Shown one piece after another: positions 18,910-59,994 of a stretch of 61,990 bases of DNA. The stretch spans positions 1 to 61,990 of IMG/VR virus record IMGVR_UViG_3300037475_000049; one strand, given 5' to 3'. Under the pieces are notes generated by a model. It saw only the letters and a list, made by a program, of their open reading frames with translations, was not told where the DNA came from and did not search any database. Positions within the stretch are counted from its first letter, which is position 1, and the number at the start of each line of letters is the position of its first letter. The stretch comes from a virus. Taxonomy: Duplodnaviria > Caudoviricetes. Made by a program: the position numbers and the translations under genes.

Positions 18910-18921
18910 ATGGCGAGATTA

Positions 18922-29559: not shown

Positions 29560-29571
29560 GATGCCTCCAAA

Positions 29572-29622
29572 CACAACATATAGTGTTACGGACATCTTAA
29601 CCCACAAGATGTTGTGTTGCAA
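29572..29622 (-). promoter_or_regulatory. Promoter of the fibre/lysis operon with tandem NrdR-like boxes
   Basis: TTGCAA-17-TAAGAT; boxes CACAACATATAGTG (29572) and CACAAGATGTTGTG (29603), 31 bp apart. Confidence 0.75.
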
Positions 29623-29642
29623 TGAATGCTTTCAGAAACTAC

Positions 29643-29671
29643 TTGCTAAACGTCTAGGATACCGCTAGACT
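29643..29671 (+). promoter_or_regulatory. Promoter of the glycosyltransferase operon
   Basis: TTGCTA-17-TAGACT. Confidence 0.6.
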
Positions 29672-29676
29672 GTTTT

Positions 29677-29829
29677 TTGGTATCCCGACCCAAAAACTGG
29701 ACCGCAGTGCAGATGGGACGCATCGGCGGCAAGAAGCGCATGGCTAAGATGACCAAAGAGCAGCGCACGGAGCTTGCGCGGGCTGCGGCTAGAGCGCGTT
29801 GGGATAAGAAGAAACAGGAGAACCAGTGA
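29677..29829 (+). CDS. Small basic putative nucleic-acid-binding protein (not in ORF track)
   Basis: KNWTAVQMGRIGGKKRMAKMTKEQRTELARAAARARW. Confidence 0.7.
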   Translation: MVSRPKNWTAVQMGRIGGKKRMAKMTKEQRTELARAAARARWDKKKQENQ

Positions 29830-29945
29830 CTTGGCTTGATTGGATGGCGCTGGGAGCCTTATTCCTGGCTGTCGTGCTGGAGATGCGTTGGTTCAACCGT
29901 GATTTGTGGCCGAAGTGGTGGAATATTTTTGACTGGAGACTATGA
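29826..29945 (+). CDS. 39-aa Trp-rich membrane peptide
   Basis: GTGA and ATGA overlaps on both sides. Confidence 0.45.
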   Translation: MTWLDWMALGALFLAVVLEMRWFNRDLWPKWWNIFDWRL

Positions 29946-31093
29946 GCCAAACCCCGATCCTTTTCCTTTCCGATAGTCCAGATATCCAGACCGGACTTGC
30001 GAGGATTACCCGCGATCTCGCCTGCATGACCGCTTCCCTGCCAGAGTTCCGAGTGGCAACGCTGGGGCGGGGCGGCTACGGCTCCGCCAAATTGCCATTT
30101 GCGCAATACAACTTCCCGGAAGCGCATCAGTGGGGCGAAGACCACCTAGAGCGCGCCTGGAAAGAGTTCTCGCGCGGCAAGATGGGGATCATCATGACCA
30201 TCTGGGACCCTAGCCGCCTCCTGTGGTTCTCGCAACCCTCTCAAGCCATGGGCGACGGGCTCTACAAGTTCCTCACGGGTGGTACGTTCCTCAAGTATGG
30301 CTATTTCCCCGTCGATGGCACGGGCATCAGCGATAAACTAACCCGAATGAGCGCGGCCACGATCCAAGGCTACAATCGCGTCCTAGCCTACACTGCATGG
30401 GGTGCTGGCGTGATCGAGCGCACCATCGGGAGGCCCGTGGACTGGATTCCGCACGGCTTTGACGGCGAGAAGTTCCAGCCCCGCGACAAGAAAGCCTCTC
30501 GGATGATGATGGGGGTGGCTGATGATGAAATCCTGATAGGGATGAACGCCACCAACCAAGCCCGCAAGGACTGGGGAATCGCATTCGCAGCGATTGCGGC
30601 GCTCCAGACGAAGCGCAAGGTTAAGTTCTGGATACATACGGACGTTCTGGAGCGGCACTGGTCGCTGAACGCGCTTGCTGCTGACTTTGGCGTGTCGCCT
30701 ACGGTTACGCTGTGCGGGACCAAGACGGATGTTGAGTTGTCGTACCATTACGCAGCGTGCAATCTAACAATCCTGCCATCAAGCGAAGGCTACGGATTCC
30801 CGCTGGTCGAGTCGATGGCCTGCGGAGTGCCGGTGATTCACGGCAGTTACGGCGGTGGGGCTGAACTAATCCCCCGTGAATCGTGGTTGGTCGCGCCGAC
30901 ATCGTTCCATCTGGAGACGCCACAAAATGTGCTTCGGCCCGTGTGGGAACCGAACGATTGGGTTGCGGCGATTGAACGAGTACTAGAGGAGAAGCCGAGC
31001 GCGGAGGAGTGCAGGGCTGCTACGGATCACCTGCAATGGTGCAATCTGTTCCCTTCAGCTTGGAAACGCTGGTTCCTTGAGGGTTTGGGATGA
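29942..31093 (+). CDS. GT-B (GT4-like) glycosyltransferase
   Basis: SDSPDIQTGLAR; NQARKDW; SEGYGFPLVESMACGVPVI. Confidence 0.9.
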   Translation: MSQTPILFLSDSPDIQTGLARITRDLACMTASLPEFRVATLGRGGYGSAKLPFAQYNFPEAHQWGEDHLERAWKEFSRGKMGIIMTIWDPSRLLWFSQPSQAMGDGLYKFLTGGTFLKYGYFPVDGTGISDKLTRMSAATIQGYNRVLAYTAWGAGVIERTIGRPVDWIPHGFDGEKFQPRDKKASRMMMGVADDEILIGMNATNQARKDWGIAFAAIAALQTKRKVKFWIHTDVLERHWSLNALAADFGVSPTVTLCGTKTDVELSYHYAACNLTILPSSEGYGFPLVESMACGVPVIHGSYGGGAELIPRESWLVAPTSFHLETPQNVLRPVWEPNDWVAAIERVLEEKPSAEECRAATDHLQWCNLFPSAWKRWFLEGLG

Positions 31094-31728
31094 TCCCTTT
31101 CATCTGCGTAGCGGAACCTAACAATGAAGATATTGGGCCAGTGCGCCAGTACCACACGTACTACGCAACTCATGCTTGCGATCCAATAGCCGTGTTTATG
31201 CACAACGATGTGGATATTTTTGAGCCTTGGGAAGATCGCGTAATGGCGGAGTTCGATGACCCCAAGGTAGGAATAGTAGGGTTCGGTGGAGCAGTGGGTA
31301 TCGGTACTGCGGAGATTTATAAGCGACCATATGACATCTGGCAACTTCAGAGAATCGGGTACCGCTCGAATCAACGGGACTGGCATATTCATGGGACTCA
31401 TGAAACAGGAGCATGCAATGTGGCAGTTGTCGATGGCTTCTTTATCGCTGCGCGTAAAGATTTTCTGTTTCAAATCAAGGGATGGTCTTGGTTCCCATTT
31501 CAGTTTCACTGCTACGACACCGCTATCTGCTTGATGGCAGCACGCCATGGGTGGAAGGTTCGCATGGTTGGAATTGACTGCACCCATCGCGGCGGCAGCG
31601 CGTCTATAACGCCTGAGTACAAGGCGCGTTGCGAGAAGGCGGGAACTACTATTGAGCGCGAGCATTCAGAGCCTCACAAATGGCTTTATTCTGAGTTCAA
31701 AGATTGCTTGCCGCTGAGGGTTGCATGA
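31090..31728 (+). CDS. GT-A (GT2-like) glycosyltransferase
   Basis: FMHNDV; VGIVGFGG; VAVVDGFFI; FHCYDTAIC. Confidence 0.8.
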   Translation: MIPFICVAEPNNEDIGPVRQYHTYYATHACDPIAVFMHNDVDIFEPWEDRVMAEFDDPKVGIVGFGGAVGIGTAEIYKRPYDIWQLQRIGYRSNQRDWHIHGTHETGACNVAVVDGFFIAARKDFLFQIKGWSWFPFQFHCYDTAICLMAARHGWKVRMVGIDCTHRGGSASITPEYKARCEKAGTTIEREHSEPHKWLYSEFKDCLPLRVA

Positions 31729-32225
31729 ATCGTTACAACCTTTGCAGTGGTCAGCGACCATTCTCAGCGCCCTTTATCAATGTGGATTCGCAAGCCAAAT
31801 GGAACCCGGATGTGGTGGCCGACTGCTCGCACATGCCGATGTTCGAGGATGCCAGCGCGGACATGATCGTAATCCATCACGGATTAGAACACTTCGGCTG
31901 CGGTGAGGCGGACGCGATGCTGAAGGAGTGCTACCGGATACTGGCACCTGACGGCTCCTTGATCGTGTGCGTGCCGCACATGCGAGCACTCGCGCAGCGT
32001 TGGCTAGCGCGGCAGATGGATGACCAAATCTATTTCACTAACCTGTACGGGGCTTATATGGGCGAAGAGGCGGATCGGCATCGCTGGGGATTCTCTGAAG
32101 TGTCGCTGTTCGAGACGCTGGCCGTATGTCCCTGGATGCGGATCAGAAAGTTCGACTGGCGCGAGATACCTGGGGCTGACATCGCTAAAGATTTTTGGAT
32201 TCTAGGAATGGAAGCCATTAAATGA
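31725..32225 (+). CDS. Class I SAM methyltransferase
   Basis: NLCSG...INVD...HHGLEH...ECYRILAPDG.L..CVP. Confidence 0.8.
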   Translation: MNRYNLCSGQRPFSAPFINVDSQAKWNPDVVADCSHMPMFEDASADMIVIHHGLEHFGCGEADAMLKECYRILAPDGSLIVCVPHMRALAQRWLARQMDDQIYFTNLYGAYMGEEADRHRWGFSEVSLFETLAVCPWMRIRKFDWREIPGADIAKDFWILGMEAIK

Positions 32226-32437
32226 AGCAGATCAAGGTAGTGGTCGATGGAGTTGCGCCGATCCTCATCACAGCCAATGCGGGATGTTTTCTGAGAGTGG
32301 ACAGCGAATCGTCAAACTATTTCAAGGTAACGGCCTACAAGACCTCGAAGGTGCTCGGCGTCAGTTGGCGAGTTTCCAAAAAAGTAGTCGCTGGATTCGC
32401 AATCAATAAATTGGTTCTGTGGACGGAGGTAACGTGA
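32222..32437 (+). CDS. Hypothetical protein
   Basis: 71 aa, coupled both sides. Confidence 0.5.
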   Translation: MKQIKVVVDGVAPILITANAGCFLRVDSESSNYFKVTAYKTSKVLGVSWRVSKKVVAGFAINKLVLWTEVT

Positions 32438-33150
32438 CGCCTGTTCTCATCCCTATCATCAATGGCCGTGAGTTGACCCGCAACTGCATCAATAGCGTGC
32501 TCGCACAAGACGTGCCCTGCGAAGCGTTCGTGCTCGACAATGGCGCGACTGATGGCAGCGGCGAGATGCTCCGCGCATGGGCCGATGATCGCATCCACTA
32601 CATCGCAGCACGCAAGCCGAGCGTTGCGGCGTCATGGAACTTTGGGTTGAAGTGGCTATTCGCACAAGGGCATGCCGCCGTTCTTGTTTTAAATAATGAT
32701 ACCGAGTTACGCCCCGATACTGTGCGCTGGCTGATGGCTGATGGTGGTCCTTTCGTCACGGCGGTCGGCGCGGTGGAAAAAGAGAAGATAGAGCCTCCGT
32801 ACATTCCTCCTGATCCTTCAAAGAAGCGTGACCACCCGGATCACAGTTGCTTTTTGATTAGAAAATCCTGCTATGAAGCTATTGGCGGATTCGATGAGGA
32901 ATATGAAGGAGGCTACGTAGAAGACGCGGAGTGGCACCTATCAATGTATCGCGCTGGAATACCCGCTGTCTGTCTGGAGCTTCCATTCTGGCATCTTGGA
33001 GCAGGGACTATCAAAAACTCTGATCCTGAAATGATGCGCGAGATACAGTTGAGGGCGGATCATAACCGATCTAGGTTCAAAGAGCGTCACGGTGCGGAAG
33101 TTGGCTCTCCTGAATATTACGCCTTGTTCGGTCACGGAGCGCCAGAATGA
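32434..33150 (+). CDS. GT2 glycosyltransferase
   Basis: VLIP..N...DNGATDG...SWNFG...LNNDT...GGFDE...YVEDAE. Confidence 0.9.
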   Translation: MTPVLIPIINGRELTRNCINSVLAQDVPCEAFVLDNGATDGSGEMLRAWADDRIHYIAARKPSVAASWNFGLKWLFAQGHAAVLVLNNDTELRPDTVRWLMADGGPFVTAVGAVEKEKIEPPYIPPDPSKKRDHPDHSCFLIRKSCYEAIGGFDEEYEGGYVEDAEWHLSMYRAGIPAVCLELPFWHLGAGTIKNSDPEMMREIQLRADHNRSRFKERHGAEVGSPEYYALFGHGAPE

Positions 33151-33854
33151 CAAACATCGTTTTGATAACCAACGGTTCCCGTCCCCGCTTGCTAGCTCAA
33201 ACATTACGGACGCTGTACGTCAACACACCAGCGGACCAGTATACGCTGACGATGGTCACGGATGGGCACATAGAATTTCCCTTTGAGCAAGATTGGGGAG
33301 AGCGCATTTCAGTGATTGGGATGCGACCCCCATGCAATATCCTGGGACGCCTAAAGAACTTAGGAATTTATTGGTCCAATAAGCAGTTCGGTCGCGGTGA
33401 GTGGCTTTGTGTTTTGGATGACGATTTAGCGTTCTGGCCGGGATGGTTGGAGAAGATGGCGTATGCACTAGAGTGCAGGAATGAAGTTCGCATCCTAGGC
33501 GGCGTGAGGCATCCCTATCATGGAATAAATGAGATCCTTTCGGCTGATAATTTTAAGCGTGATGTAAAACCAAATGACCTTGTACAGACGATAGAATCCA
33601 CTGACGCCGTTGCTGGCTATTGCCACTTCATGCGCTGGAAGACGTGGGATCGCTTCGGCCCGTATGACGCTCACGCCAAGGGAACAGGGCAGAGCGAGGA
33701 CTTTGCTATCTGTCGCAAGATTGTGGACGCTGGCGGTAAGGTGGGCTATATCCACCCTCCGGTTATGGCGCATTGTGGCGTCACTGATTCGCTTGGCCGT
33801 CCAGCAATCGGCATGGAAAAGATCCAACGCAAACTAGGCGTGCTCTATGAATAG
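33147..33854 (+). CDS. GT2-like glycosyltransferase
   Basis: LDDDL DxD motif; GWLEK; SEDFAIC. Confidence 0.8.
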   Translation: MTNIVLITNGSRPRLLAQTLRTLYVNTPADQYTLTMVTDGHIEFPFEQDWGERISVIGMRPPCNILGRLKNLGIYWSNKQFGRGEWLCVLDDDLAFWPGWLEKMAYALECRNEVRILGGVRHPYHGINEILSADNFKRDVKPNDLVQTIESTDAVAGYCHFMRWKTWDRFGPYDAHAKGTGQSEDFAICRKIVDAGGKVGYIHPPVMAHCGVTDSLGRPAIGMEKIQRKLGVLYE

Positions 33855-34494
33855 GGGCTCGCCAGAGTACATCGAAGCCGTCCAGCGCGTGAAGATCGAC
33901 TACTTTACGGAACACCTTGGGCTGGATATAAAAGGCATTCTGCACGTCGGCACCAACGACGGTTATGAGATGCAGTTCTACCGCAGTATGGGGATTGAGC
34001 ACTTAGCGGGGGTTGATCCGCTGCCTTCGGCAATTGGACTATTCCGGGAACATTATCCGGACATACCTCTATTTGAATACGCACTCTCCGATGTTCCTGG
34101 TAGGGCAATGCTAAACGTGGTCACTCCTGGAGATGGTCAGGGGTCGAGTCTATTGGTTGAGTGTCGGCCTAACCCGGACTACAATTACAATTCTCAGGTA
34201 GAGGTGGAAGTCAGGCGCGGAGATTCGCTGCCTATTGCTTGGGAGAATTTTGACTGTATGGTTGTGGACGTGCAGGGATTAGAGCTTCCAGTTTTAGTGG
34301 GATTTGGAGACGCCCTTCGTGGATTTCGGATGCTCAATATCGAGTGTTCAATTGAGCCCGTATATGAAGGCGGAGCGAGAGCAGCGGACGTGGATAGTTA
34401 TCTAGCCTCAATGGGATTTGTTCGTAAATCTGATTTTGAAATCCATAATGATGTGTTTTGGGTGAGAGAGGACGTGCAATGCCTGAACCATTAG
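33847..34494 (+). CDS. FkbM-family methyltransferase
   Basis: ILHVGTNDG; SSLL; VDVQGLELPVL.G; YEG. Confidence 0.85.
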   Translation: MNRGSPEYIEAVQRVKIDYFTEHLGLDIKGILHVGTNDGYEMQFYRSMGIEHLAGVDPLPSAIGLFREHYPDIPLFEYALSDVPGRAMLNVVTPGDGQGSSLLVECRPNPDYNYNSQVEVEVRRGDSLPIAWENFDCMVVDVQGLELPVLVGFGDALRGFRMLNIECSIEPVYEGGARAADVDSYLASMGFVRKSDFEIHNDVFWVREDVQCLNH

Positions 34495-35171
34495 TCTTCA
34501 CGGCCAACTACACATGGCCCGACGTGGACTGGTCGCTACTCAAGCGCTCCGCAGAGCGCGTGGGCATTGACATTCAAACCTACGGCGATGGTAAAGGATG
34601 GCCCGGTTACGGCGTCGGCAAGCTAGTTGGCCCATTGGAGTTCTTGCGGGGGCGAACAGAAGAGGTGGTGCTGTATACGGATTCGCAAGACTCCTTCCTC
34701 GTGCATGACGCAAAGACGATCCTGAATGGATGGATGCGCTGCGGTGCTCCGCAAGTACTGCTGCAAGCAGAAAAGAACTGCTACCCAGAACCGACATGGG
34801 AACCTGAATATCCGCGTAATGATTCATCATGGCGCTACATCTGCGCTGGCGGCTGGATGGGCACTCGTACTGGCATCATAGCCGCCTTAGAAGAGATCAT
34901 TAGCGGGGGTCAATTCAAAGAGAACTCCCATTGCGATCAGCGGTGCTGGACGGACTGGTATCTTCGTCATCCTAGCGGGAAACTGCGGGCGACTCTCGAT
35001 ACTAATTGTGAAGTTTTCCAGAGTTTCTTTACGGAGACAGAAGTTGCGAACGATGGGCGCAATCTGATTACCGGAACACGCCCTAGTATTTTCCATTTCA
35101 ACGGGCGCACGCATGGGGAACGCGAATGGTACAAGAGGATAACCGGCGATGAACCTCCAAACGTTAGCTGA
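34479..35171 (+). CDS. PLOD/procollagen-GT-like GT-A glycosyltransferase
   Basis: LYTDSQD; AEKNCYP; YICAGGWMG; CDQ; LDTNCEVFQS; HFNG. Confidence 0.75.
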   Translation: MPEPLVFTANYTWPDVDWSLLKRSAERVGIDIQTYGDGKGWPGYGVGKLVGPLEFLRGRTEEVVLYTDSQDSFLVHDAKTILNGWMRCGAPQVLLQAEKNCYPEPTWEPEYPRNDSSWRYICAGGWMGTRTGIIAALEEIISGGQFKENSHCDQRCWTDWYLRHPSGKLRATLDTNCEVFQSFFTETEVANDGRNLITGTRPSIFHFNGRTHGEREWYKRITGDEPPNVS

Positions 35172-35784
35172 GCATACTGTCGATGTAGACTTGCTACCGG
35201 AAGCGCCCATAGTCTTCGACATCGGATGCCGCTGGTTCTCTTTCTCCGCTGAGATTAAGCGTCTTAGGCCCAACGCTCGCGTAGTTTGCTTCGATCCCGA
35301 CCCGCTTGTAGCGCTGGACCCAAAGGGCGGCGAGTTCGAGTTCCAACAGAAGGGAATCGTTGGGAGGCCAGCCATTCCCCACGATGGAACGGCTAGGCTT
35401 TATCGATACCTGGATGGCGTGTCTGATTTCATAGACGGCCTAGCCTGCGAGCACTACTTCAGGGACCATGCAATCTACCAAGGGGATTTTGTAGACGTTT
35501 CGGTAACCACAATCGAGGACGCTATGCGGGATGCCGGGGTCAATCACTTGGATGTAGTTAAGCTCGACTGCGAATGCTCTGAATTTTCCATTCTCGGCAA
35601 TTGGCCTGGGCCAATAGCTACTCAAATTAGCGTGGAGTTCCATGACTGGGCGGATCGGTCTAAGTGGTCTAAGCAATACTTTGATGCCCTGTTCTCTGGG
35701 CCCCTCAAAGACTACAGGATCGTACAGCACGAGGAACACGGCAGCTATTCGTATATGGATTCGCTGTTAGTGCTGAGGGATTAG
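35149..35784 (+). CDS. FkbM-like methyltransferase
   Basis: VFDIGC; FDP; VVKLDCECSE; QISVEFH. Confidence 0.8.
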   Translation: MNLQTLAEHTVDVDLLPEAPIVFDIGCRWFSFSAEIKRLRPNARVVCFDPDPLVALDPKGGEFEFQQKGIVGRPAIPHDGTARLYRYLDGVSDFIDGLACEHYFRDHAIYQGDFVDVSVTTIEDAMRDAGVNHLDVVKLDCECSEFSILGNWPGPIATQISVEFHDWADRSKWSKQYFDALFSGPLKDYRIVQHEEHGSYSYMDSLLVLRD

Positions 35785-35786
35785 CT

Positions 35787-36410
35787 ATGTATGATCTGAG
35801 CGTGTACAACGATCACTTTTTCAGCAACAATCAAGCCGAAGGGCTGCGCCATGCCGAGTGGTTCATGCCGTTACTGGAGGGTTTGTTCCACTTCAAATCT
35901 CTGGTGGATGTTGGCTGCGGGACGGGACACTTTGTGAAGTGGTGTTTGGATCACGGTATAAGTGCAATTGGAATGGAGGGAGCGGACGCGGCAATTGCGC
36001 ACTCTCTCATCCCTAACGATGTGTGGCATCTAGATTTACGGACTTCATGGCCGGGGGCGGCATCCAAGCAGTTCGACCTAACACTTTGCATCGAAGTAGC
36101 CGAACACATCGAAGAGGAATATGTGAACATCTTCGTGGATACGCTGTGTTCGCTTTCCGATACCATCGTGATGACTGCTGCGTCTCCGGGACAAGGTGGC
36201 GAACACCACGTAAACGAGCAACCGCAGGAGTATTGGCAAAGCCTGATGGCGCTACGCGGGTTTGGCTTTGACTTCGCCAAGACGACGGCGCTGAAGGAAG
36301 GTGTGATGGCCGCGCGGGCTAACGGCTTCCACGTTGCTACGTGGCTACCGGGGAATCTGCAATGTTACCGCAAGGCTACTGCGGCGGGGGCGGCGGAGCC
36401 ACAGGCGTAG
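35787..36410 (+). CDS. Class I SAM methyltransferase
   Basis: VDVGCGTG; CIEVAEH; TAASPGQGGEHHVNEQ. Confidence 0.9.
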   Translation: MYDLSVYNDHFFSNNQAEGLRHAEWFMPLLEGLFHFKSLVDVGCGTGHFVKWCLDHGISAIGMEGADAAIAHSLIPNDVWHLDLRTSWPGAASKQFDLTLCIEVAEHIEEEYVNIFVDTLCSLSDTIVMTAASPGQGGEHHVNEQPQEYWQSLMALRGFGFDFAKTTALKEGVMAARANGFHVATWLPGNLQCYRKATAAGAAEPQA

Positions 36411-50650: not shown

Positions 50651-50740
50651 TATGGTTCTCCTTTATGCGCTAAAATAAGAAGGATCGCAGCGGGTGTCAG
50701 CCCGCCACGATCCAGACACAGCGCCTATAGAGGAGGCACC

Positions 50741-51241
50741 ATGCCGAAATACCATCGTAGAACAATTCCAGAAATCTCGAAGAGCCTTGCGGATCACTTT
50801 TGGAGCAAGGTTGATATACGCAGTCCTAGAGAATGCTGGATTTGGAAGACTGGCAAATTCCCAAGAGGATATGGGGCTTTCGCCATAGGATACAGCCAAT
50901 TCCCCGCATCTCGCATTGCATTTGTTCTCCAGTATGGAGCATGGGCTATTCCTGGGAATATATTTGTTCTTCATCGCTGCGATAATCCTCCTTGCTGCAA
51001 CCCAGATCACTTGTTTCTGGGGACTGTCAAGGAAAACGCCGAAGACTGCTTCAAGAAAGGAAGAAATGTTCGCGGGGTCAATCATCCGCTTGCTAAACTC
51101 TCTGAAGCGCAAGTAAGAGAAATCCGCACAGCCCTTGATGGCGGGGAATTTACTCAGGCATTTCTTGCCCAGCAGTACGGAGTGGACCCTGCGCTCATTG
51201 GTCGTATTTTCCATCGTCGTTCGTGGTCCCATGTCAAATAG
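50741..51241 (+). CDS. HNH endonuclease with C-terminal HTH
   Basis: AGGAGG RBS; FWSKV...CWIW...GYG.F...VLHRCDNPPCCNPDHLFLGT..EN; AKLSEAQVREIR. Confidence 0.9.
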   Translation: MPKYHRRTIPEISKSLADHFWSKVDIRSPRECWIWKTGKFPRGYGAFAIGYSQFPASRIAFVLQYGAWAIPGNIFVLHRCDNPPCCNPDHLFLGTVKENAEDCFKKGRNVRGVNHPLAKLSEAQVREIRTALDGGEFTQAFLAQQYGVDPALIGRIFHRRSWSHVK

Positions 51242-52448
51242 AATGGTCCTGTAAAAATTTGGCATCCCACCATGGAGAAAAGGCCATGTTGGTAGCATAG
51301 GAAACCATATTTTCCATCGTGTTGTCGTCGTTCTTCTCTAACTCACCGATCATCATTTCGCACTTCCGTTCAATGCGATCCGACAGATTCAGATCGTAGT
51401 ACGGGTTCGGCGCGTCCACGCTCGGGCCCGGCCACCGTGCGGCCATCGCAAGCGCCATGTCAAGCAGGACATCTTGGCGGATATAACGCGGGATGACAGC
51501 GCCCAATTCGTCAATGTCCTGACATACCGCCTCGTAGAGATACGGATAAACATAATTGGAAAGATTATGCGGCCACAGTTCAAAGCGCGGCACTCCTACG
51601 GTATTGACCACAAACGCCTGAATGATGAAAGTATCGCCGTTTATATACGTCCCCGCAGGAAAAAAAATTTGGACGCCATCAGACAAATCGAGCGGGTTGC
51701 TATCCGTAGTAACGCCTGTAGTGAATCCACCCGCGTCTTTCTCCCATTCAAAAGTAGCTGTGCCGCTGGGGCCACCCGAGGTGATGATGACCGTAAAAAT
51801 AGAATTGGCGGCTCCGGTGTAATTGGCGCTCCCAGCGATCAATGGAGCAGCCCCGGAGCCAATAATCTGTACTGGATTGCGAATCGTCCCAACTGCGTTC
51901 GTGGTGTAGTCGAGCGAAGCGACAACGTAAGCCTGCCCCGTATTCGCCCGCTGCGCATCCCAAGAGTTCAATTCCTGCTGCTGAGTGTTGAGCCTCAACT
52001 GCCAGGAATAGTTCGGGTCCCACAGACTGATGAACGAACGGAAATCATTCGGCGGCGTGACGTAAGCCTGATAAATCTGGTAACCGATCCCCGCTGTGGT
52101 CTGTCCACCATACGGCAGTTCTAATTGCAGCGAAGTGGCGGAATTAACAAGCGAGATGGTATAGATCGGGGTTGAAACGCTAACGCGGAACTGACGCCCC
52201 ACCATGGAAGAATCCCATGTTGTGCCAGAGCCTATGACGGTAGCGCTGTTCTGGGTGACAATGACAGTCCCGGTATTGTAGACGACCGGGAGAATGAACT
52301 GATTGTACTTAACGAGCCAAGACCATGTTCGACGCTCCGCTATGCGGCGGAAGGCATCGGAGGTCCAGCGCTGGCACAGGAGTGCCCCCGCAGATGGACA
52401 CTGCGAGAGCACTCTGTTCCAGACAGCCTGATAGGTGGTGGTCGCCAC
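51234..52448 (-). CDS. Head-completion/adaptor protein with beta inserts
   Basis: AFRRIAERRTWSWL; YNTGTV.VTQNS.TV.GSGTTW; position after capsid genes. Confidence 0.55.
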   Translation of the reverse strand: MATTTYQAVWNRVLSQCPSAGALLCQRWTSDAFRRIAERRTWSWLVKYNQFILPVVYNTGTVIVTQNSATVIGSGTTWDSSMVGRQFRVSVSTPIYTISLVNSATSLQLELPYGGQTTAGIGYQIYQAYVTPPNDFRSFISLWDPNYSWQLRLNTQQQELNSWDAQRANTGQAYVVASLDYTTNAVGTIRNPVQIIGSGAAPLIAGSANYTGAANSIFTVIITSGGPSGTATFEWEKDAGGFTTGVTTDSNPLDLSDGVQIFFPAGTYINGDTFIIQAFVVNTVGVPRFELWPHNLSNYVYPYLYEAVCQDIDELGAVIPRYIRQDVLLDMALAMAARWPGPSVDAPNPYYDLNLSDRIERKCEMMIGELEKNDDNTMENMVSYATNMAFSPWWDAKFLQDHSI

Positions 52449-52452
52449 GCAC

Positions 52453-52695: not shown

Positions 52696-52704
52696 TGATT
52701 CTCC

Positions 52705-53247: not shown

Positions 53248-53265
53248 TGTAGTGGTCTCCTCTCC

Positions 53266-54372
53266 TTAGCCCGTGATTTGATACAACTGCTGGTGGTAAC
53301 GCGGAGCCCAAGTAACCGCGCCAGCAAAAAGCACCTGACCCGCGATCTTGGTATTGCCCTGCGCAGGCTTGAACCCAGTGAACCCAAAGCCATACTCCGG
53401 GTCATCGGAGATGTAGAAGTTCATGTAGGGCTTGTTGCCGTTAATCCAGAACAGCGTCTCGTTGTACGAGCCAGCAGCCGGATAGCCGCCTACCGGAGTC
53501 GGATAAGCAGTAAGCGCTCCACCCGACATGGTTTTGATGAACTGGACAGCTACCGGATCGGCGGTTCCGCTCGAACCGTAGAGGTAAGCACCAGGAGCGT
53601 AACGGGACTTGATGATCGTCGCGCTGTTGAACTTCAGGCCGTTGAAGCCAATCTTCGGGTCCTGAGTGTCATTGAAGCGCTGCTGGGTCTGGAACTTCTC
53701 CTTGATGAAGGAGTAGCCGAACTGAGTAGTACAGCCAAGATTCGGTTCTTTCGTCCCGAAGCTGGCCGCCCCGTAGGTGTTTTCGAGCGTGTTGTACTGG
53801 ATTGTACCGTTCACGTTCGTCGGCACCGAGTTCAGCGTGGTTCCTACCGAACCGCCACGGGTGATCGCCCCGTAAGTGGTATACGCCACGTTATTCCAAG
53901 AAACGGTGGACCCGTCATTCAGCGCTTCCGGGAGTCCATCAAAGTTCTTGGTGTAGTTGGCATTGAGCCCCGGCAGGTACATCGCGATTTCGAGGTAAGC
54001 GCCCATCGTCGCATACGCATTTTCCATGCGTGACTTGACGAGGGAGAAGATCATGTTCGGTCCCTTGTTGATGACCTGAACATCTTCCTTCGCCATCGTG
54101 ATGTTGACCTCGAAGAACTTGGGATTGAACTGCAATTCCTGTTCTACTTGAGGCTCAGTGATGTCAAATTCTTGACCTTTGGCGTAAGGGCCGCCGATCA
54201 GCCCGTTATACCAAAAGTTCTCGCCGATAAACCGCCCACCCGTATAGGTTTCCCGTGCGGTCGTCTTGGCATAAGCAGCCAAGGGACCTTCCTGGAAAAC
54301 CATGTCGATGAGCTTTGGAGTTTCGCGGACGAAGCGTTTAGTTGCGACTGTTATCTGGTCTAAATCAGCCAT
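53266..54372 (-). CDS. Major capsid protein
   Basis: 368 aa after scaffold; GGRFI.E; FDGL; YGAITR; QQRF...GFNGLKF. Confidence 0.8.
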   Translation of the reverse strand: MADLDQITVATKRFVRETPKLIDMVFQEGPLAAYAKTTARETYTGGRFIGENFWYNGLIGGPYAKGQEFDITEPQVEQELQFNPKFFEVNITMAKEDVQVINKGPNMIFSLVKSRMENAYATMGAYLEIAMYLPGLNANYTKNFDGLPEALNDGSTVSWNNVAYTTYGAITRGGSVGTTLNSVPTNVNGTIQYNTLENTYGAASFGTKEPNLGCTTQFGYSFIKEKFQTQQRFNDTQDPKIGFNGLKFNSATIIKSRYAPGAYLYGSSGTADPVAVQFIKTMSGGALTAYPTPVGGYPAAGSYNETLFWINGNKPYMNFYISDDPEYGFGFTGFKPAQGNTKIAGQVLFAGAVTWAPRYHQQLYQITG

Positions 54373-54411
54373 GATGTTGTCTCCAGACCCCAGCCGCTAG
54401 GACAGGGATCT

Positions 54412-55215
54412 TCAGCTTGCCTTCTCCTGATAGTTGTTGAACGCCTCCAAGAATGCTTCCTTGGAATTGCGGTCTTGCTGAAGTTCGGATACGGGTTGAT
54501 CGGGCTTCTCGGATCGGTCGAAGAATGGATGCGCTTCTTTGGGGCGCGTATTGATCGGCAACTGGTGCTTAGAAAGAGCATCGCGTGCTCCCTCTTCGCG
54601 GGCTGCCTTCAACTTCGCGTCAAACTCGGCGTTCCGCTGTTCGTCCACCTTGGGAGCTACGAACTCCTTGTAGGCTTGGCGCAACGGCAAACCGCTCTTG
54701 ATCGCATACGCCTCCAGGGCGTCCACGTCCACAGGCTCTTTAAACCTCTGGAAGTGATCCATGGTCACGTAAGCTATATCTTTCGACAGGTTTACGTAAG
54801 CCTGATCCTTCTGGGCGCTGTTCGCCTTCAGGATCTCCTCAACTTGGTCCTTGGTTAGCCCGGTGGCTTCGGCTGCACGCCGAACGTCCCCCGCGCCGTC
54901 GATAGCTCCGTAGGTTTGCTGGTACGCCTGCAACTGCTGGGTCAGCGTGCCGAATTGATCGAACGCTGGCTTGGCGGTCTTGGAATACCAATCACGAACC
55001 GAAGCGGCTTCCTGCTCCGCCTTGGTCGCACGCCCCTCCCATTCACCCTTCATTCGGTCGAGTGTCGAGTGGTGAGTCGGCGTTTCTACGAACCCATCTT
55101 TAAATGCTTTCGCAACAGTGTCATCGCCCAGAGCTTCGCTGATGGCTTTCATCTTCTCTTCAGAGACGCCAGCCTTCTTCGCTAACTCCTGCCAGTACTG
55201 TTTTAGGTCTGCCAT
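54412..55215 (-). CDS. Scaffolding protein
   Basis: Charged helical 267 aa directly upstream of the MCP. Confidence 0.65.
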   Translation of the reverse strand: MADLKQYWQELAKKAGVSEEKMKAISEALGDDTVAKAFKDGFVETPTHHSTLDRMKGEWEGRATKAEQEAASVRDWYSKTAKPAFDQFGTLTQQLQAYQQTYGAIDGAGDVRRAAEATGLTKDQVEEILKANSAQKDQAYVNLSKDIAYVTMDHFQRFKEPVDVDALEAYAIKSGLPLRQAYKEFVAPKVDEQRNAEFDAKLKAAREEGARDALSKHQLPINTRPKEAHPFFDRSEKPDQPVSELQQDRNSKEAFLEAFNNYQEKAS

Positions 55216-55279
55216 ATTTTTGTGCTCTCATTCCCCAGAACCCTGCCTTGATTGCCCAGGCTCCTAGAAAGTCGATCAA

Positions 55280-55672
55280 CTACATACCCGGTCCAGGCGG
55301 AGGTCCGCCGGGAGGGGGAGGGGGAGCCATTGGCATTCCACCACCACCCGGAGGGCCTGCTGCTGCCGGAACTTGCATCGGATTCCCGCCTGTCATAGCC
55401 TGCGGCACCGCCTGACGGACAAATGCCACCACCTGACCCAGCGGGTCTTGTAAAGCCGGAAACCCTTGAACGAGGAGTTGCGCCCCTTTTTCCATCAACT
55501 GCAACCCCTGGAGAGCCATGATCTGCGGATTGCCCGCGTCGGCTCCTAACCCCTTCGGCTGCTGATCCATTAACGTAGACTTTCGCCCCCCGCCGCCAGT
55601 AGGCAGAGGAGGCGGACCATCCAAACTCGTATGGCGGTCGTCCTGCGCAGGACCAGCAACTTCTAATGCCAA
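55280..55672 (-). CDS. Pro/Gly-rich head-region protein
   Basis: 130 aa between portal and scaffold. Confidence 0.55.
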   Translation of the reverse strand: MALEVAGPAQDDRHTSLDGPPPLPTGGGGRKSTLMDQQPKGLGADAGNPQIMALQGLQLMEKGAQLLVQGFPALQDPLGQVVAFVRQAVPQAMTGGNPMQVPAAAGPPGGGGMPMAPPPPPGGPPPGPGM

Positions 55673-55777
55673 CTTATTTCCCTTTGCACGCTACGGACTT
55701 GACTTGGGTGGCGGGGCCGACAACCATACCCTTTTTCGAGCCCTTACCCATAGACTTCATGCCGCCTGATTTCTTTT

Positions 55778-55990
55778 TCACGTTTTTGCTCCTGACATAG
55801 ATGGTTTTGGAATGGATGCGCCCGCTTTCCTCGCTTTGGAAAGAAGGATGGCAACTCTTTGCTTGGATGCTCGACCGGGGCCGTACTTCGCGGCGGTCTT
55901 GCCGAGGATGGCGGGAGGGTTCTTTTTGATTTCCGTCCCGACTTCGTTCAGGACACCTTCGTTGTCTTCGGTGGGGGCCATGCGTGCCAT
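55778..55990 (-). CDS. Small basic phage protein
   Basis: KQRVAILLSKARKAGA. Confidence 0.55.
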   Translation of the reverse strand: MARMAPTEDNEGVLNEVGTEIKKNPPAILGKTAAKYGPGRASKQRVAILLSKARKAGASIPKPSMSGAKT

Positions 55991-56166
55991 TACTTGTGCA
56001 TCCTTCCCAGCGTCTTCGCTAGATCCGCCCTGCGGCGCAACGTCGGATTCTTGCTTTTCTCAGCTTTTTCCAATTTGGCCTGTGGAATCTTCTTCCCTTG
56101 CGGAACTCCCAACTCCTTATGGAGCGCTCCCGGATGCTTAATAGCGCCCTTGATCCAATTCGCCAT
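55990..56166 (-). CDS. Small basic phage protein (NWIKGAIKHPGALH family)
   Basis: GGAGG RBS; MANWIKGAIKHPGALHKELGVPQGKKIP. Confidence 0.7.
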   Translation of the reverse strand: MANWIKGAIKHPGALHKELGVPQGKKIPQAKLEKAEKSKNPTLRRRADLAKTLGRMHK

Positions 56167-56178
56167 AAATCGAACCTC

Positions 56179-56230
56179 CACAAAATGTTGTGGTTATTAG
56201 AACGGTACACCACTACCAGTAGTGTGTCAA
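56179..56230 (-). promoter_or_regulatory. Promoter of the scaffold/capsid operon with tandem NrdR-like boxes
   Basis: TTGACA-17-TACCGT; boxes CACAAAATGTTGTG (56179) and CACTACCAGTAGTG (56211), 32 bp apart. Confidence 0.7.
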
Positions 56231-56358
56231 GAACAGGCGCACCTTATTCCACCAGCGGATAAGCAGAGGTTCTTGGATTATGGCTGGAGGTGGAATAGGC
56301 GCGGCGGCTCGGGGAGCCCGCTTGTAAAACATGTTGTGCGCCATCCGATACCGATTCA

Positions 56359-56646: not shown

Positions 56647-56656
56647 AATGCGCCTC

Positions 56657-56953: not shown

Positions 56954-58864
56954 TTAGCTTGACTCCTTCATCACTAGCCGGGGCGCTTCTCCCCCTGATG
57001 CCTTGCGCCCAGCGCTTGAAATATTCATACCCAGGCCCATTTGCTGTTCTGCCTGAAGCCTCTCCGAGATAGTTCCGGCAGGCGCTTCCCCAACGTTCGG
57101 AATCCCCAATTTTTCCAATAAGGTCCAGTGGTCGAGAAGTCCAGCACGCGACAACTGCAAGTACATCATCTTCTCTTCCATCTCCGACGCCGATAGCAGA
57201 GATCCCGGAGCAATGTGGTACGTGAAACGTCGCAGGTATTCGCGGGACCGTTCATAGCGGGGCATGGGCCCGCGCAATAGCGCATCGGGAGAAACCACGC
57301 CGCGTTCGTCAAAATCTTCGTCGTGGACGAAATCGGGGATCATACTGCCCGGATCGAAGTCGAAATCCTCGAATGTGGCTCCATCGGGACCCAGAATTGT
57401 CAGACGCTTCGGAAGATCGTAGAACTGTGCGAAGTTGTAGGCCGTCATCATGCCGAACTCGCGCATAACGGCTTCTATGGCTCGCGAACGACCGCGAACG
57501 CTGGGGGACATCGCTTCCATCACCTTTTCGATAGTCCCTGCGCTCGGCATCTGATTCAGCCGCATCATCTGGCTGAGATCGCGGACGCCAGAGAGCATGT
57601 CCATCTCGTTCGAATCAAGCTCCAACGACTTGAAAATGGTGTCCGGAAGAGGATTCGGGTAGACAATCTGAATACCTTTGCCCATCATCGGGTTTTGCTG
57701 GAGCTTCAGGCCCGATTTGCGGGTGTCGATGCGGTCCATCGCCTGCCGGGACGTGCTGTTTTTGTCCGCGATGAGGTCAGGTCGAGCCATTTTCTCAGTC
57801 CAGTCGTCAATGACACGCAATTTCTTGTCATACGACTTCTGGAGCGGCAAAAGATCCCACAGAGGCGCTTTCCCTAGCCAAGTCCACGGCCAATCGTCCA
57901 AAGTCAGCTTACAAACAGGGAAAAGGCCATGCCAGTAGATGCTAGGACCGTCGTAGAGCACTGCATCGGAGGTAAAAACGATGCAGCGCTTGCGGGGATA
58001 GAGCAATTCACCCTTATGGACGATGTAGGACCAGTTGGTTTTGGGCTCTCCGCGCTCATTCGTTTCGCCCATGACGCGCGGGGTTGTGCCTTCGTGCCGC
58101 CGCGTGTCCGTAATGTACATTTCGTACAGGTCCACGGTGGGGATGCGCGGCAATTCTTTGGCTGGCTTGTCGTCGCCGAACAAACGGGCGCGGAAAGGGC
58201 TCGACATCGCCTCAAAAACGCGGCCAGCGCGGGTATTTTTTAAACCCGTGATCGCGGAACCGTCCCGATCCGCGTGAATACGGTTCTTTTTGCTAGGGTA
58301 GAGGCCGCGAACGTAGTTTACGCTGCGGGAGCGCCGGATGATGACGCCCATTGCCGTCTGGATGGTGGAATTATCGGCTGGACGGATAGGGATGACATCG
58401 CGGGGATCTTCGGCGGAAAGGTCCAAATCCTCCGTGTCTTCGTTGTAAAACGGGTGAATCCAGCCCGTGCCACCGACTAGATAGTATTTGATCCCCTCCG
58501 CAAAGCGCATGTCGATCTGGCGCTGGGTGTACCATGCGCTCGATAGCTTGCCGAAGATTTCCGCGTTCTTCTCAAAGCGCTTGTTGTAGGTTCGGAACTC
58601 CCAGAAGGGCTTAACGTCCGTCATTAACGCTGCAAGGTCGTTGGCGATCTTGCCGATGTGATTGGAGGTGGTGGTTGAGAGCGTAGAGGACCGCATTTCG
58701 CGGCCTTTGCCCATAATGGCGGCTATGCACTCATCAATGCGGTCGTAACCCTCTTGAGCCTTGAGAAACGCTGATCCTTCCTCCAGGGCTTCTGTAGCCC
58801 ATTCGAGGATGCGAAATTCGTTCGATTCGTCCGTAGTGGAAGGGATCGGCGGTTGATAGGCCAC
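56954..58864 (-). CDS. Portal protein
   Basis: 636 aa after terL; N.I; GTGWI..Y; DPRDV; LLPLQ..Y; MDMLSGV. Confidence 0.85.
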   Translation of the reverse strand: MAYQPPIPSTTDESNEFRILEWATEALEEGSAFLKAQEGYDRIDECIAAIMGKGREMRSSTLSTTTSNHIGKIANDLAALMTDVKPFWEFRTYNKRFEKNAEIFGKLSSAWYTQRQIDMRFAEGIKYYLVGGTGWIHPFYNEDTEDLDLSAEDPRDVIPIRPADNSTIQTAMGVIIRRSRSVNYVRGLYPSKKNRIHADRDGSAITGLKNTRAGRVFEAMSSPFRARLFGDDKPAKELPRIPTVDLYEMYITDTRRHEGTTPRVMGETNERGEPKTNWSYIVHKGELLYPRKRCIVFTSDAVLYDGPSIYWHGLFPVCKLTLDDWPWTWLGKAPLWDLLPLQKSYDKKLRVIDDWTEKMARPDLIADKNSTSRQAMDRIDTRKSGLKLQQNPMMGKGIQIVYPNPLPDTIFKSLELDSNEMDMLSGVRDLSQMMRLNQMPSAGTIEKVMEAMSPSVRGRSRAIEAVMREFGMMTAYNFAQFYDLPKRLTILGPDGATFEDFDFDPGSMIPDFVHDEDFDERGVVSPDALLRGPMPRYERSREYLRRFTYHIAPGSLLSASEMEEKMMYLQLSRAGLLDHWTLLEKLGIPNVGEAPAGTISERLQAEQQMGLGMNISSAGRKASGGEAPRLVMKESS

Positions 58865-59265
58865 TACTTATCCTCATGGCCGCGACCACTGCCACGGTCA
58901 AACCAAGCGCGTTCGCTGCGGGTGCCTGTGGCCTTCTCGATTTTCTCCAGTGAGCGGAGATTACGCGCCTCGAATCGCTCATAGCCCATACGGGCATAGC
59001 GTTCCGGGATCGGCACGTCATTACGCGCGGTGAATTTGATGTCACCGCTTCCCGGATGACGCCAAACCACCGCCGCCTCGGAGGGATGACAAGGGAGCCC
59101 GGTATCGGGAGCCTTCCCTCTAAGGTCAATGGCTTTTGTCTGGATTTCGGCGATATGGCCCCGGTCGAGGTCCCAATGGATCACCTTCTTTCCCAGTAAG
59201 TGACTGTTGGTCTGGGCATCGCCCACAATCTCAAACCCGCACTCGCATTGTGCAACGAATGGCAT
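58864..59265 (-). CDS. Hypothetical protein
   Basis: TAATG-coupled start at 59265. Confidence 0.5.
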   Translation of the reverse strand: MPFVAQCECGFEIVGDAQTNSHLLGKKVIHWDLDRGHIAEIQTKAIDLRGKAPDTGLPCHPSEAAVVWRHPGSGDIKFTARNDVPIPERYARMGYERFEARNLRSLEKIEKATGTRSERAWFDRGSGRGHEDK

Positions 59266-59507
59266 TAGCGAAGCCTCATATTGGACCAAGCCAAAACGTA
59301 TTCGTTGTCGAGGAATAGTTGACACAGGGCATCATAGGACCAGTTATCTGGCAGGGGCGTTGATTCCTGTCCCGTTAGAATGTATCTCGCAAGAGCGCTT
59401 TTCAGCCCATAAAGACTTCCAAAATGTTCGATTGCGTTATTTGAGCTTAACTGATTTTGAAACCACCAATTAAGAGCATCTTGTAGGCTTGGATTTGTAG
59501 AGGTCAT
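59265..59507 (-). CDS. Hypothetical protein
   Basis: Coupled both sides. Confidence 0.45.
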   Translation of the reverse strand: MTSTNPSLQDALNWWFQNQLSSNNAIEHFGSLYGLKSALARYILTGQESTPLPDNWSYDALCQLFLDNEYVLAWSNMRLR

Positions 59508-59914
59508 CGCATCCCCGCCGCCGCTTCCGCCCACTCATTGACGCAATCCGTGAGGTAAGTACCAAAGTCCCGGCTATGGTCGAAGTGCCTCGTACGCAAG
59601 CGTTCCAGAACTTCAGGCCGGATCGTCATGCTGATGCCGTTGACCTTCACAGTCAGGAAACGGCGGATGATTTCGAGCACTTCGCCGGGGCCGTTGATAT
59701 TGCGGCCCAGCATGGTTTCGAGGTTGCGGCGCTGTGTGTCGGTGAAGTAGAGCGGCTTCGTAGCGTTGTAATCGACGCACTCAGAGAGGCGATTCGCCAG
59801 CAGTTCTTCGAGTTCGACGCCGTAGGTTTCCGACTCTTCGCGGTACTTCTTGAGCACTGCGTCGGAGAGGTCCAAGCGCAGCAAGATACTGGGAGCGGGC
59901 GTAGTGGCTGCCAT
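59504..59914 (-). CDS. Hypothetical protein, possibly RHH-like repeats
   Basis: 136 aa; first gene after the NrdR-boxed promoter. Confidence 0.6.
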   Translation of the reverse strand: MAATTPAPSILLRLDLSDAVLKKYREESETYGVELEELLANRLSECVDYNATKPLYFTDTQRRNLETMLGRNINGPGEVLEIIRRFLTVKVNGISMTIRPEVLERLRTRHFDHSRDFGTYLTDCVNEWAEAAAGMR

Positions 59915-59922
59915 TAGAAGTC

Positions 59923-59992
59923 ATCTTAGACTGGAAATGGTGCAAACGCAAGATATAGTGCCAAGTGGAACATTTGACCACTATATGTTGTG
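59923..59992 (-). promoter_or_regulatory. Promoter of the portal operon with tandem NrdR-like boxes
   Basis: TTGCGT-17-TAAGAT; boxes CGCAAGATATAGTG (59947, overlaps -35) and CACTATATGTTGTG (59979), 32 bp apart. Confidence 0.75.
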
Positions 59993-59994
59993 TA

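What the first reader, a model, noticed from the sequence alone, without database searches (positions are those of the whole stretch)
29572..59992. Late structural operons appear wired to the host dNTP sensor NrdR
Seen: three pairs of a 14-bp palindrome close to CACWANATNTWGTG at 29572/29603, 56179/56211 and 59947/59979, spaced 31, 32 and 32 bp. Each pair overlaps a sigma70-type promoter: fibre/lysis operon, scaffold-capsid-tail operon and portal operon. Single copies lie at 5232 and 18922. 29571-29586 reads ACACAACATATAGTGT. Established: the NrdR box consensus is acaCwAtATaTwGtgt, typically tandem about 31-32 bp apart, and NrdR represses when loaded with dATP/ATP. No nrd or nrdR gene is recognisable here. 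Inference: the phage borrows host NrdR as a late-gene timer, so that morphogenesis and lysis genes are derepressed when genome replication drains dNTPs. I know of no described phage late switch of this kind.
Basis: partly seen in the sequence, partly recalled or inferred. Interest (0 to 1): 0.88.

Follow-up and report, generated by a model that had tools for sequence, protein, structure and literature searches.

The report
NrdR operator pairs before phage virion operons
A complete 62-kb soil-type phage carries three textbook binding sites for the bacterial DNA-precursor sensor NrdR directly in front of its portal, head and tail-fibre gene blocks, which suggests, untested, that it ties virion production to the host's dNTP state.

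Summary
Three box pairs (29571/29602, 56178/56210, 59946/59978) exist, against 0.005 pairs per shuffled window. They meet the published NrdR operator rules: 16-bp boxes, linkers of 15/16/16 bp, and C4-A6-A8-T9-T11-G13 complete in 5 of 6 boxes. Each pair lies 11-31 nt before the first start codon of a minus-strand block: tail-fibre-like, head (scaffold, capsid, tail) and portal.

The phage has no nrdR, ATP-cone or RNR gene. Boxes and spacing are kept while the linker drifts in close kin and in one 57% relative at the same position. Most distant relatives lack them: 1 of 36 upstream and 1 of 40 downstream. They are therefore an add-on layer, not the family's basic late switch.

In IMG/VR, strict pairs follow NrdR's helical-phase rule (81, at least 119 and 84 loci in phase; 1 out of phase). 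They often precede portal or terminase genes and rarely RNR genes.

Sigma70 overlap, the lysis genes and the dNTP timer are unproven, and the host is unknown. This scan noted NrdR boxes in other phages before. I found no paper on it.

The parts
29571..29586 (.). Pair 1, gene-proximal NrdR-type box (ACACAACATATAGTGT). It ends 2 nt before the GGAGG and 11 nt before the ATG (29559) of the tail-fibre-like gene.
   Evidence: 6 of 6 conserved positions, AT fraction 0.875.
29602..29617 (.). Pair 1, distal box (CCACAAGATGTTGTGT), with a linker of 15 bp. On the minus strand it is flanked by TTGCAA upstream, and TAAGAT follows 3 nt downstream.
   Evidence: 6 of 6 conserved positions.
27622..29559 (-). 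First gene after pair 1 (645 aa, weak tail-fibre match). It is followed on the same strand by 26489-27625, 25385-26488 and 22109-25369, none of which has a known function.
   Evidence: phrog_5073 tail fiber, E 3e-5.
56178..56193 (.). Pair 2, gene-proximal box (CCACAAAATGTTGTGG). Its last GG is part of a GGAGG, and the ATG at 56166 lies 11 nt beyond the box.
   Evidence: 6 of 6 conserved positions.
56210..56225 (.). Pair 2, distal box (CCACTACCAGTAGTGT), the degenerate one, with a linker of 16 bp. C4, A6, T11 and G13 are kept but the middle dinucleotide is not AT. The AT fraction is 0.625, at the published lower limit. On the minus strand TTGACA abuts it.
53266..56166 (-). Start of the head block after pair 2: a small gene at 55990-56166, then 55778-55990, 55280-55672, a scaffold-position gene at 54412-55215 and the major head protein at 53266-54372. 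Tail genes follow on the same strand down to about 36376.
   Evidence: phrog_9953 major head protein, E 2e-16; tail-fibre and tail PHROGs for 51234-52448 and 42802-44109; synteny with G001.
59946..59961 (.). Pair 3, gene-proximal box (ACGCAAGATATAGTGC), 31 nt before the ATG at 59914.
   Evidence: 6 of 6 conserved positions.
59978..59993 (.). Pair 3, distal box (CCACTATATGTTGTGT), with a linker of 16 bp. It begins 1 nt after the stop codon of the upstream gene 59995-60855. Its TATAGT (minus strand) is the -10 of the only promoter-like site that the scan reports at any of the three pairs.
56954..59914 (-). Portal block after pair 3: 59504-59914 (136 aa), 58864-59325 (153 aa) and the portal gene 56954-58864.
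   Evidence: phrog_156 portal, E 5e-20.
5231..5246 (.). Single full-consensus box without an in-phase partner. A half-site lies at 5208-5223, only 7 bp away.
18921..18936 (.). Single box without a partner. It overlaps the -10 (TATAGT) of a promoter-like site that faces gene 18505-18909.

Best explanation
The three box pairs are genuine NrdR-type operators, and the phage has no NrdR of its own, so the NrdR of its unknown host would bind them. NrdR binds DNA as a tetramer when loaded with ATP plus dATP. Each operator sits at the head of a virion-gene block. One box fills the space just after a -35-like hexamer, and the other lies at or just after the likely transcript start, 11-31 nt before the first start codon. 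Bound NrdR would therefore block initiation, or read-through from upstream, into the portal, head-tail and tail-fibre blocks. Repression would lift when dATP falls, or when replicating phage genomes outnumber the repressor, so that virion genes come on after DNA replication is under way. Shown: the sites, their fit to the published operator rules, their placement, their selective conservation, and the absence of a phage nrdR or RNR gene. Inferred: binding by host NrdR, repression, and the timing logic. The boxes are absent from most relatives, so this is an added control layer in this lineage and not the family's basic late switch.
For: 1) Fit to the experimentally defined site. The published definition is two 16-bp boxes, a 15-16 bp linker whose length but not sequence matters, conserved C4, A6, A8, T9, T11 and G13, at least 63% AT between C4 and G13, a tolerant middle AT, and both boxes required (PMC13584703). 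In the window the linkers are 15/16/16, 5 of 6 boxes score 6/6 and the sixth 4/6 with C4, A6, T11 and G13 kept, and the AT fraction is 0.625-0.875. Two boxes differ from the paper's synthetic consensus box by a single base. 2) Chance: 3 pairs against 0.005 per shuffle. 3) Placement: all three pairs precede the first gene of a minus-strand virion block. 4) Footprint. Against the 97%-portal relative L001, the boxes of pair 3 are 29/32 identical and the linker 9/16. Across the window, L001, L316 and the 57% relative L365, which carries the pair at the orthologous position, 13/16 and 10/16 box columns are invariant against 4/16 linker columns. 5) No phage NrdR, ATP-cone or RNR gene. 6) Generality and spacing rule. 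This mirrors the measured phase dependence of NrdR (PMC12051234). Seven sites lie 12 nt before phage nrdD genes and serve as a positive control. Fifteen of the 226 nearest genes are portals of four Pfam families. 7) In a pneumococcal phage infection the host NrdR regulon is strongly up-regulated (PMC6755750), so NrdR-controlled promoters do open during lytic growth.
Against: Most relatives lack the boxes. These include the complete 58.6-kb relative G001, Tunturiibacter phage Tunturi_1, 35 of 36 metagenome relatives that hold at least 1150 bp upstream of the portal, and 39 of 40 that hold at least 800 bp downstream. These phages express the same genes without NrdR sites. The host is unknown, and about 23% of bacterial genomes lack NrdR according to PMC13584703. 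Promoters are not established: the consensus scan reports only one site at the three pairs, and promoter-like sites are not above chance. The supposed -10 in the linker of pair 3 is not conserved. One box (56210) is at the lower limit of the published tolerances. No binding or expression data exist. I did not test whether portal or terminase contexts in IMG/VR are enriched over random intergenic positions.
Confidence: 0.55

Rival explanations
1. Repressor decoy. The sites do bind host NrdR, but their main use is to soak it up. As the genome replicates, three operators per copy titrate NrdR away from the host's RNR promoters and raise dNTP supply for a phage that has no RNR of its own. This is not exclusive of the best explanation.
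For: The phage lacks any RNR gene and so depends on host dNTP synthesis. The sites are high-quality operators.
Against: A decoy needs no particular position. Here all three pairs sit 11-31 nt before the first start codon of an operon, next to -35-like hexamers. In other phages the pair often ends within 8 nt of a portal start. Three sites per genome is a small sponge before replication.
Confidence: 0.15
2. Sites of a phage-encoded regulator. An unrecognised phage DNA-binding protein, not host NrdR, binds these palindromes as a late activator or repressor. The likeness to NrdR boxes would be convergence or mimicry.
For: Most proteins of this phage match no family. Forty ORFs went to Pfam and 30 to PHROGs, partly the same ones, and most returned 0 families, so a regulator could be hidden. 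Distant relatives lack the boxes, as expected for a lineage-specific regulator and site pair.
Against: No HTH_3, sigma70 region 2, ATP-cone or NrdR-like frame is found in six frames. The same boxes with the same in-phase spacings occur in hundreds of unrelated viral contigs and before phage nrdD genes, which points to one universal host factor. Both the box and the linker rules match NrdR in detail.
Confidence: 0.1
3. The sites work at the RNA level or are neutral. The gene-proximal palindromes could act as small hairpins next to the ribosome-binding site, or the boxes could be remnants without present function.
For: The proximal boxes of pairs 1 and 2 abut or overlap GGAGG. Two single boxes without partners exist, as expected if boxes decay.
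Against: The distal boxes and the exact 15-16 bp linkers are conserved while the linker sequence drifts. An RNA hairpin or a neutral remnant does not explain this. The chance expectation is 0.005 pairs.
Confidence: 0.05

Closest known systems
NrdR operators of bacterial ribonucleotide reductase promoters (E. coli nrdAB, nrdHIEF, nrdDG; S. coelicolor nrdAB, nrdRJ), as characterised in PMC13584703, PMC12051234 and PMC9110341
   Same: Two partially palindromic 16-bp boxes, a 15-16 bp linker of free sequence, the same six conserved positions and an AT-rich core. The boxes overlap or follow promoter elements.
   Different: The genes controlled are phage portal, head, tail and tail-fibre genes, not RNR genes. 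The genome has no RNR or nrdR gene, so the repressor would have to come from the host.
Replication-coupled late transcription of phage T4 (sliding clamp gp45 with gp55/gp33) - recalled, not from a call
   Same: It has the logic proposed here: late virion genes come on only once DNA replication is running.
   Different: T4 uses its own proteins that load at replication forks. Here the coupling would go through a host small-molecule sensor (dATP/ATP on NrdR) and ordinary operator occlusion.
Phage-encoded late activators of packaging and lysis operons (RinA, ArpU, Ltr-type; PMC3753634 and PMC13123087, seen as search listings only)
   Same: They control the block that starts with terminase, portal and head genes.
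   Different: They are phage-encoded activators with lineage-specific sites. Here no phage regulator is recognisable, and the site is that of a universal host repressor.
Host stress repressor LexA controlling prophage genes (for example the coliphage 186 tum gene) - recalled, not from a call
   Same: A phage places the operator of a host global sensor before its own gene in order to read the cell's state.
   Different: The sensor is different (DNA damage against dNTP pool), and the targets are switch genes, not virion operons.

Membership tests
NrdR operator (tandem NrdR boxes) | Two 16-bp partially palindromic boxes, both required | tested here: met
   Three pairs. The rule comes from PMC13584703.
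NrdR operator (tandem NrdR boxes) | Conserved positions C4, A6, A8, T9, T11 and G13, with C4 and G13 critical | tested here: met
   5 of 6 paired boxes score 6/6. Box 56210 scores 4/6 with C4, A6, T11 and G13 kept, and the paper shows the middle AT is dispensable.
NrdR operator (tandem NrdR boxes) | Linker of 15-16 bp (14-17 or 24-27 tolerated; others about 100-fold weaker) | tested here: met
   Linkers are 15, 16 and 16.
NrdR operator (tandem NrdR boxes) | At least about 63% AT between C4 and G13 | tested here: met
   Values are 0.625-0.875. Box 56210 is at the limit (rule).
NrdR operator (tandem NrdR boxes) | Boxes conserved and linker sequence free among relatives | tested here: met
   Boxes 29/32 identical against linker 9/16. 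Invariant columns: 13/16 and 10/16 in the boxes against 4/16 in the linker. In pair 2 the linker is also fully conserved among close kin, which says nothing either way.
NrdR operator (tandem NrdR boxes) | Lies in the promoter region of an RNR operon (or nrdR) | tested here: not met
   There is no RNR or nrdR gene in the genome. The downstream genes are virion genes.
NrdR operator (tandem NrdR boxes) | Bound by NrdR loaded with ATP plus dATP, and released with ATP alone | not testable with these tools
   This needs EMSA or MST with purified NrdR.
NrdR operator (tandem NrdR boxes) | An NrdR protein is present in the cell | not testable with these tools
   The host is unknown: no prophage relative was found in 185,579 species genomes, and the only hit to the glycosyltransferase is 28% identical. 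NrdR occurs in 77% of bacterial genomes.
Sigma70-type promoter overlapped by the operator | -35 and -10 hexamers at 16-18 bp with at least 9 of 12 matches, conserved in relatives | tested here: inconclusive
   The scan reports only TAGACT-17-TATAGT at pair 3. Read by eye, pair 1 has TTGCAA-17-TAAGAT and pair 2 has TTGACA-17-TACCGT. Promoter-like sites are not above chance. The linker '-10' of pair 3 is not conserved.
Site of a phage-encoded late regulator | A DNA-binding regulator gene in the phage that co-occurs with the sites | tested here: inconclusive
   No HTH_3, sigma70_r2, ATP-cone or NrdR frame was found. Most ORFs match no family at all.

The most novel reading that the evidence does not exclude
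Host NrdR is a widely co-opted sensor. Unrelated tailed phages place canonical NrdR operators before portal, terminase and head genes, and temperate ones before antirepressor genes. Virion production, or induction, is then licensed by falling dATP or by titration of the repressor as phage DNA replicates. This phage, with three such operators on all its morphogenesis blocks and no regulator of its own in sight, would be a clear case of a replication-coupled late switch built entirely from a host metabolic repressor.
Probability: 0.35. Interest if true: 0.9.

Novelty: new variant of a known kind. Interest (0 to 1): 0.72.

Why it matters
NrdR is described as an RNR-specific repressor. If phages use it to gate virion genes, that would add a new input, the dNTP pool, to phage developmental timing. 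It would also give a simple host-borne way to couple late transcription to DNA replication, and it would extend the NrdR regulon beyond nucleotide synthesis. The idea is directly testable, because NrdR from E. coli or Streptomyces binds heterologous boxes in vitro. It also bears on plans to target NrdR with antibacterials, since changing NrdR activity could change phage yield in the many phages that carry these sites.

Tried and rejected
Near-identical and distant DNA searches of the cultured-phage collection found nothing for the window or for L041. The portal protein found only Tunturiibacter phages at 23.6% identity and a Microbacterium phage. Tunturi_1 has no pair, so no cultured model of this family emerged.

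Host search: the portal profile found no relative in the species genomes. The glycosyltransferase found one 28% match in a Planctomycetota MAG, which I do not take as a host clue.

Rfam and tRNA scans of the window were empty.

SpSL1, the phage of the NrdR-regulon paper, has no box pair. That paper therefore supports only derepression of host genes.

A loose six-position rule for pairs gave about 36 chance hits in the relatives and was dropped in favour of a matrix with a chance rate of 0.0.

One search missed L001-L007 because I mistyped the ids; they were scanned.

Sequencing runs: no RNA holder is listed, so nothing can be said about expression. The laid runs were DNA contigs only. One contig of X3 leaves the window after box 59946-59961 and, after 16 unlike letters, reads a further box-like CCACTATTGGTTG. 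I count this single contig as weak. Parts without cover are not interpreted.

I considered module-boundary recombination sequences and rejected them, because the three regions share only the 16-bp boxes. A phage RNA polymerase promoter was considered: PF00940 found nothing, but its control was silent, so that search is uninformative. I did not test enrichment of portal or terminase contexts against random intergenic positions. Supplementary files of the papers were not opened, and the box logos and site lists in them might bear on the degenerate box.


Full report
WHAT THE WINDOW IS. The window is a complete uncultured virus record of 61,990 bp with 127-bp direct terminal repeats. It has 52-59% G+C and no tRNA or Rfam match. 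Most ORFs match no family. The recognisable genes are a portal (56954-58864), a major head protein (53266-54372), tail and tail-fibre-like proteins (51234-52448, 42802-44109, 27622-29559) and an opposite-strand block of glycosyl- and methyltransferases (29942-36410). There are also a radical-SAM protein and a RusA resolvase. The nearest cultured phages are Tunturiibacter phages, with only 23.6% portal identity. No tyrosine integrase was found.

THE OBSERVATION. The 14-mer consensus with up to one mismatch occurs 7 times against 0.26 expected. The eighth copy (56210-56225) has two mismatches. Read as 16-bp boxes, the pairs are 29571/29602, 56178/56210 and 59946/59978, with linkers of 15, 16 and 16 bp. 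A matrix made from boxes of other phages finds exactly these three in-phase pairs, against 0.005 per shuffled window. The copies at 5231 and 18921 have no partner at any permitted linker.

FIT TO THE NrdR SITE. I read the abstract and the Results of PMC13584703. An NrdR site is two 16-bp boxes with a 15-16 bp linker whose length matters and whose sequence does not. Both boxes are required. C4, A6, A8, T9, T11 and G13 are conserved, and C4/G13 and A6/T11 are critical. The middle AT can be replaced if at least about 63% AT remains between C4 and G13. Passages of PMC12051234 add that four NrdR proteins bind linkers of 14-17 and 24-27 bp, and bind other lengths about 100-fold worse.

In the window, 5 of 6 paired boxes have all six positions. 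The sixth keeps C4, A6, T11 and G13 and has 62.5% AT. Two boxes differ by one base from the paper's synthetic consensus box. On sequence criteria the three pairs are therefore predicted to be functional NrdR sites, and the two single boxes are not.

WHERE THE PAIRS SIT. All three pairs precede minus-strand blocks.

Pair 1: TTGCAA, distal box, 3 nt, TAAGAT, proximal box, TT-GGAGG-CATC-ATG of the 645-aa tail-fibre-like gene.

Pair 2: TTGACA, distal box, 3 nt, TACCGT, proximal box whose end forms GGAGG, then 8 nt to the ATG of a 58-aa gene. That gene heads the scaffold, capsid and tail block.

Pair 3: the distal box starts 1 nt after the stop codon of gene 59995-60855. The proximal box lies 31 nt before the 136-aa gene that heads the portal block.

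In each case a box fills the spacer after a -35-like hexamer, and the other box would lie at or after the transcript start. This is a classic occlusion layout. The same layout is plainer in another phage, L018, which reads TTGACA, box, TATAGT before an SPP1-type portal.

The promoters are not established, however. The consensus scan flags only TAGACT-17-TATAGT at pair 3. Promoter-like sites are not above chance (2 against 9.0 expected, and 6 against 7.2). The linker of pair 3 has no conserved -10. A roadblock to read-through from the upstream packaging genes is an equally open mechanism. No lysis gene was recognised downstream of pair 1.

NO PHAGE NrdR AND NO RNR. Six-frame searches for ATP-cone, NrdR (TIGR00244), both class I/II RNR subunits and NrdD found nothing, while the controls rang. 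HTH_3 and sigma70 region 2 were not found either. This is weak evidence, because the phage's proteins are mostly beyond family recognition.

RELATIVES. Close kin keep the pairs. These are L001 (97% portal identity, both pairs 2 and 3), L293 (98%, pair 2) and L316 (99%, pair 3).

In pair 3 the boxes are 29/32 identical between the window and L001, while the linker is 9/16. L365 has 57% portal identity, and its flanking proteins are 49% and 37% identical to the window's. It carries a pair with a 15-bp linker at the orthologous place, between the homologues of 59995-60855 and 59504-59914, plus a third box 14 bp further on. Across these four sequences, 13/16 and 10/16 box columns are invariant against 4/16 linker columns.

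Against this, the complete 58.6-kb relative G001 has no box at all, and its equivalent junctions are short and box-free. Of 80 metagenome relatives, only 1 of the 36 that hold at least 1150 bp upstream of the portal has a pair there. Only 1 of the 40 that hold at least 800 bp downstream has one there. The operators are thus selectively maintained where they are present, but they are sporadic in the family. They are an added layer and not the family's basic late switch.

OTHER PHAGES. Only 1 locus has the out-of-phase linker 21. This is the phase rule measured for NrdR.

The 202 sites with linker 15 or 16 fall into 127 groups after dereplication. Of the 226 nearest genes, taken within 250 bp at 157 of the 202 sites, 15 are portals of four Pfam families. 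About 7 are large terminases, 2 are small terminases, 4 are antirepressors and 7 carry an ATP-cone (4 of those match NRDD). None is a class I/II RNR.

By clusters named from one representative each, 31 of 127 groups have a portal, large terminase or protease-capsid gene within 3.5 kb, transcribed away from the site. One group has nrdD. The nrdD cases are a positive control for the pattern. I did not test whether the packaging and head contexts exceed what random intergenic positions would give, so I claim recurrence in unrelated lineages and not enrichment.

LITERATURE. Searches for NrdR box with phage, NrdR with bacteriophage, with capsid and with prophage found no report of NrdR sites controlling phage virion genes. 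The broader search was uninformative. PMC6755750 (abstract and one figure legend seen) reports strong up-regulation of the host NrdR regulon during lytic infection by a pneumococcal phage. NrdR-controlled promoters therefore do open in infected cells. That phage itself has no pair. The statement that NrdR tetramers bind DNA with dATP plus ATP, and not with ATP alone, is taken from abstracts in the listing. Earlier notes of this scan report NrdR boxes in many other phages, including at head and packaging promoters. Those are unchecked AI notes. I re-derived the general point independently here.

VERDICT. The NrdR-operator reading is well supported on every sequence criterion that can be tested. 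The link to virion operons is real. The promoter overlap, the lysis label and the dNTP-drain timer are not shown, and most relatives manage without the boxes. I rate binding of the sites by host NrdR at about 0.75, gating of virion operons at about 0.55, and the general timer idea at about 0.35.

Noticed in passing
window 5208-5246: A full-consensus single box (5231-5246) has a half-site only 7 bp away (5208-5223). They lie inside or just after an 80-codon ORF and before gene 4855-5157. There is no in-phase partner, so NrdR binding is not predicted by the published rules.
   Followed up: partly
window 18921-18952: The single box overlaps the -10 of a promoter-like site (TTAGCA-18-TATAGT) that faces gene 18505-18909. 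The ATG is so close that the transcript would be almost leaderless.
   Followed up: partly
window 56324-56339: A third, weaker box (5 of 6 positions, no G13) lies 98 bp upstream of pair 2 in the same intergenic region.
   Followed up: no
L365 2676-2752: In this 57% relative the orthologous pair is followed by a third box after a 14-bp linker, directly before the start codon. PMC13584703 mentions a three-box arrangement for Thermotoga nrdJ.
   Followed up: partly
L374 3217-3263 (Streptococcus phage Javan536): A textbook pair (15-bp linker) lies in the lysogeny-switch region of a prophage of S. salivarius. It precedes an unannotated Cro/cI-like frame that is followed by the antirepressor gene. 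Antirepressors are also among the nearest genes in IMG/VR (4 of 226).
   Followed up: partly
IMG/VR loci L008-L290: Strict NrdR-type pairs in viral contigs follow the helical-phase rule (linkers 15, 16 and 26 common; linker 21 found once). They mostly lie away from RNR genes: portal, terminase, DNA ligase, antirepressor and many genes of unknown function.
   Followed up: partly
window 59248-59505: Contigs of three runs skip 258-269 bases here and carry 19-30 other letters instead. The spacer between the 136-aa and 153-aa genes of the portal block is thus an insertion/deletion polymorphism among close relatives.
   Followed up: no
window 29652-29679: A terminator-like hairpin with a T-run on the plus strand lies between pair 1 and the opposite-strand glycosyl/methyltransferase block. 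It is unclear which transcript it would stop.
   Followed up: no
window 1-927 and 61570-61990: A minus-strand gene runs across the record's ends through the 127-bp terminal repeat. Another first-reader note calls it the terminase ATPase part and calls 59995-60855 the nuclease part. PHROGs found nothing for 59995-60855.
   Followed up: no
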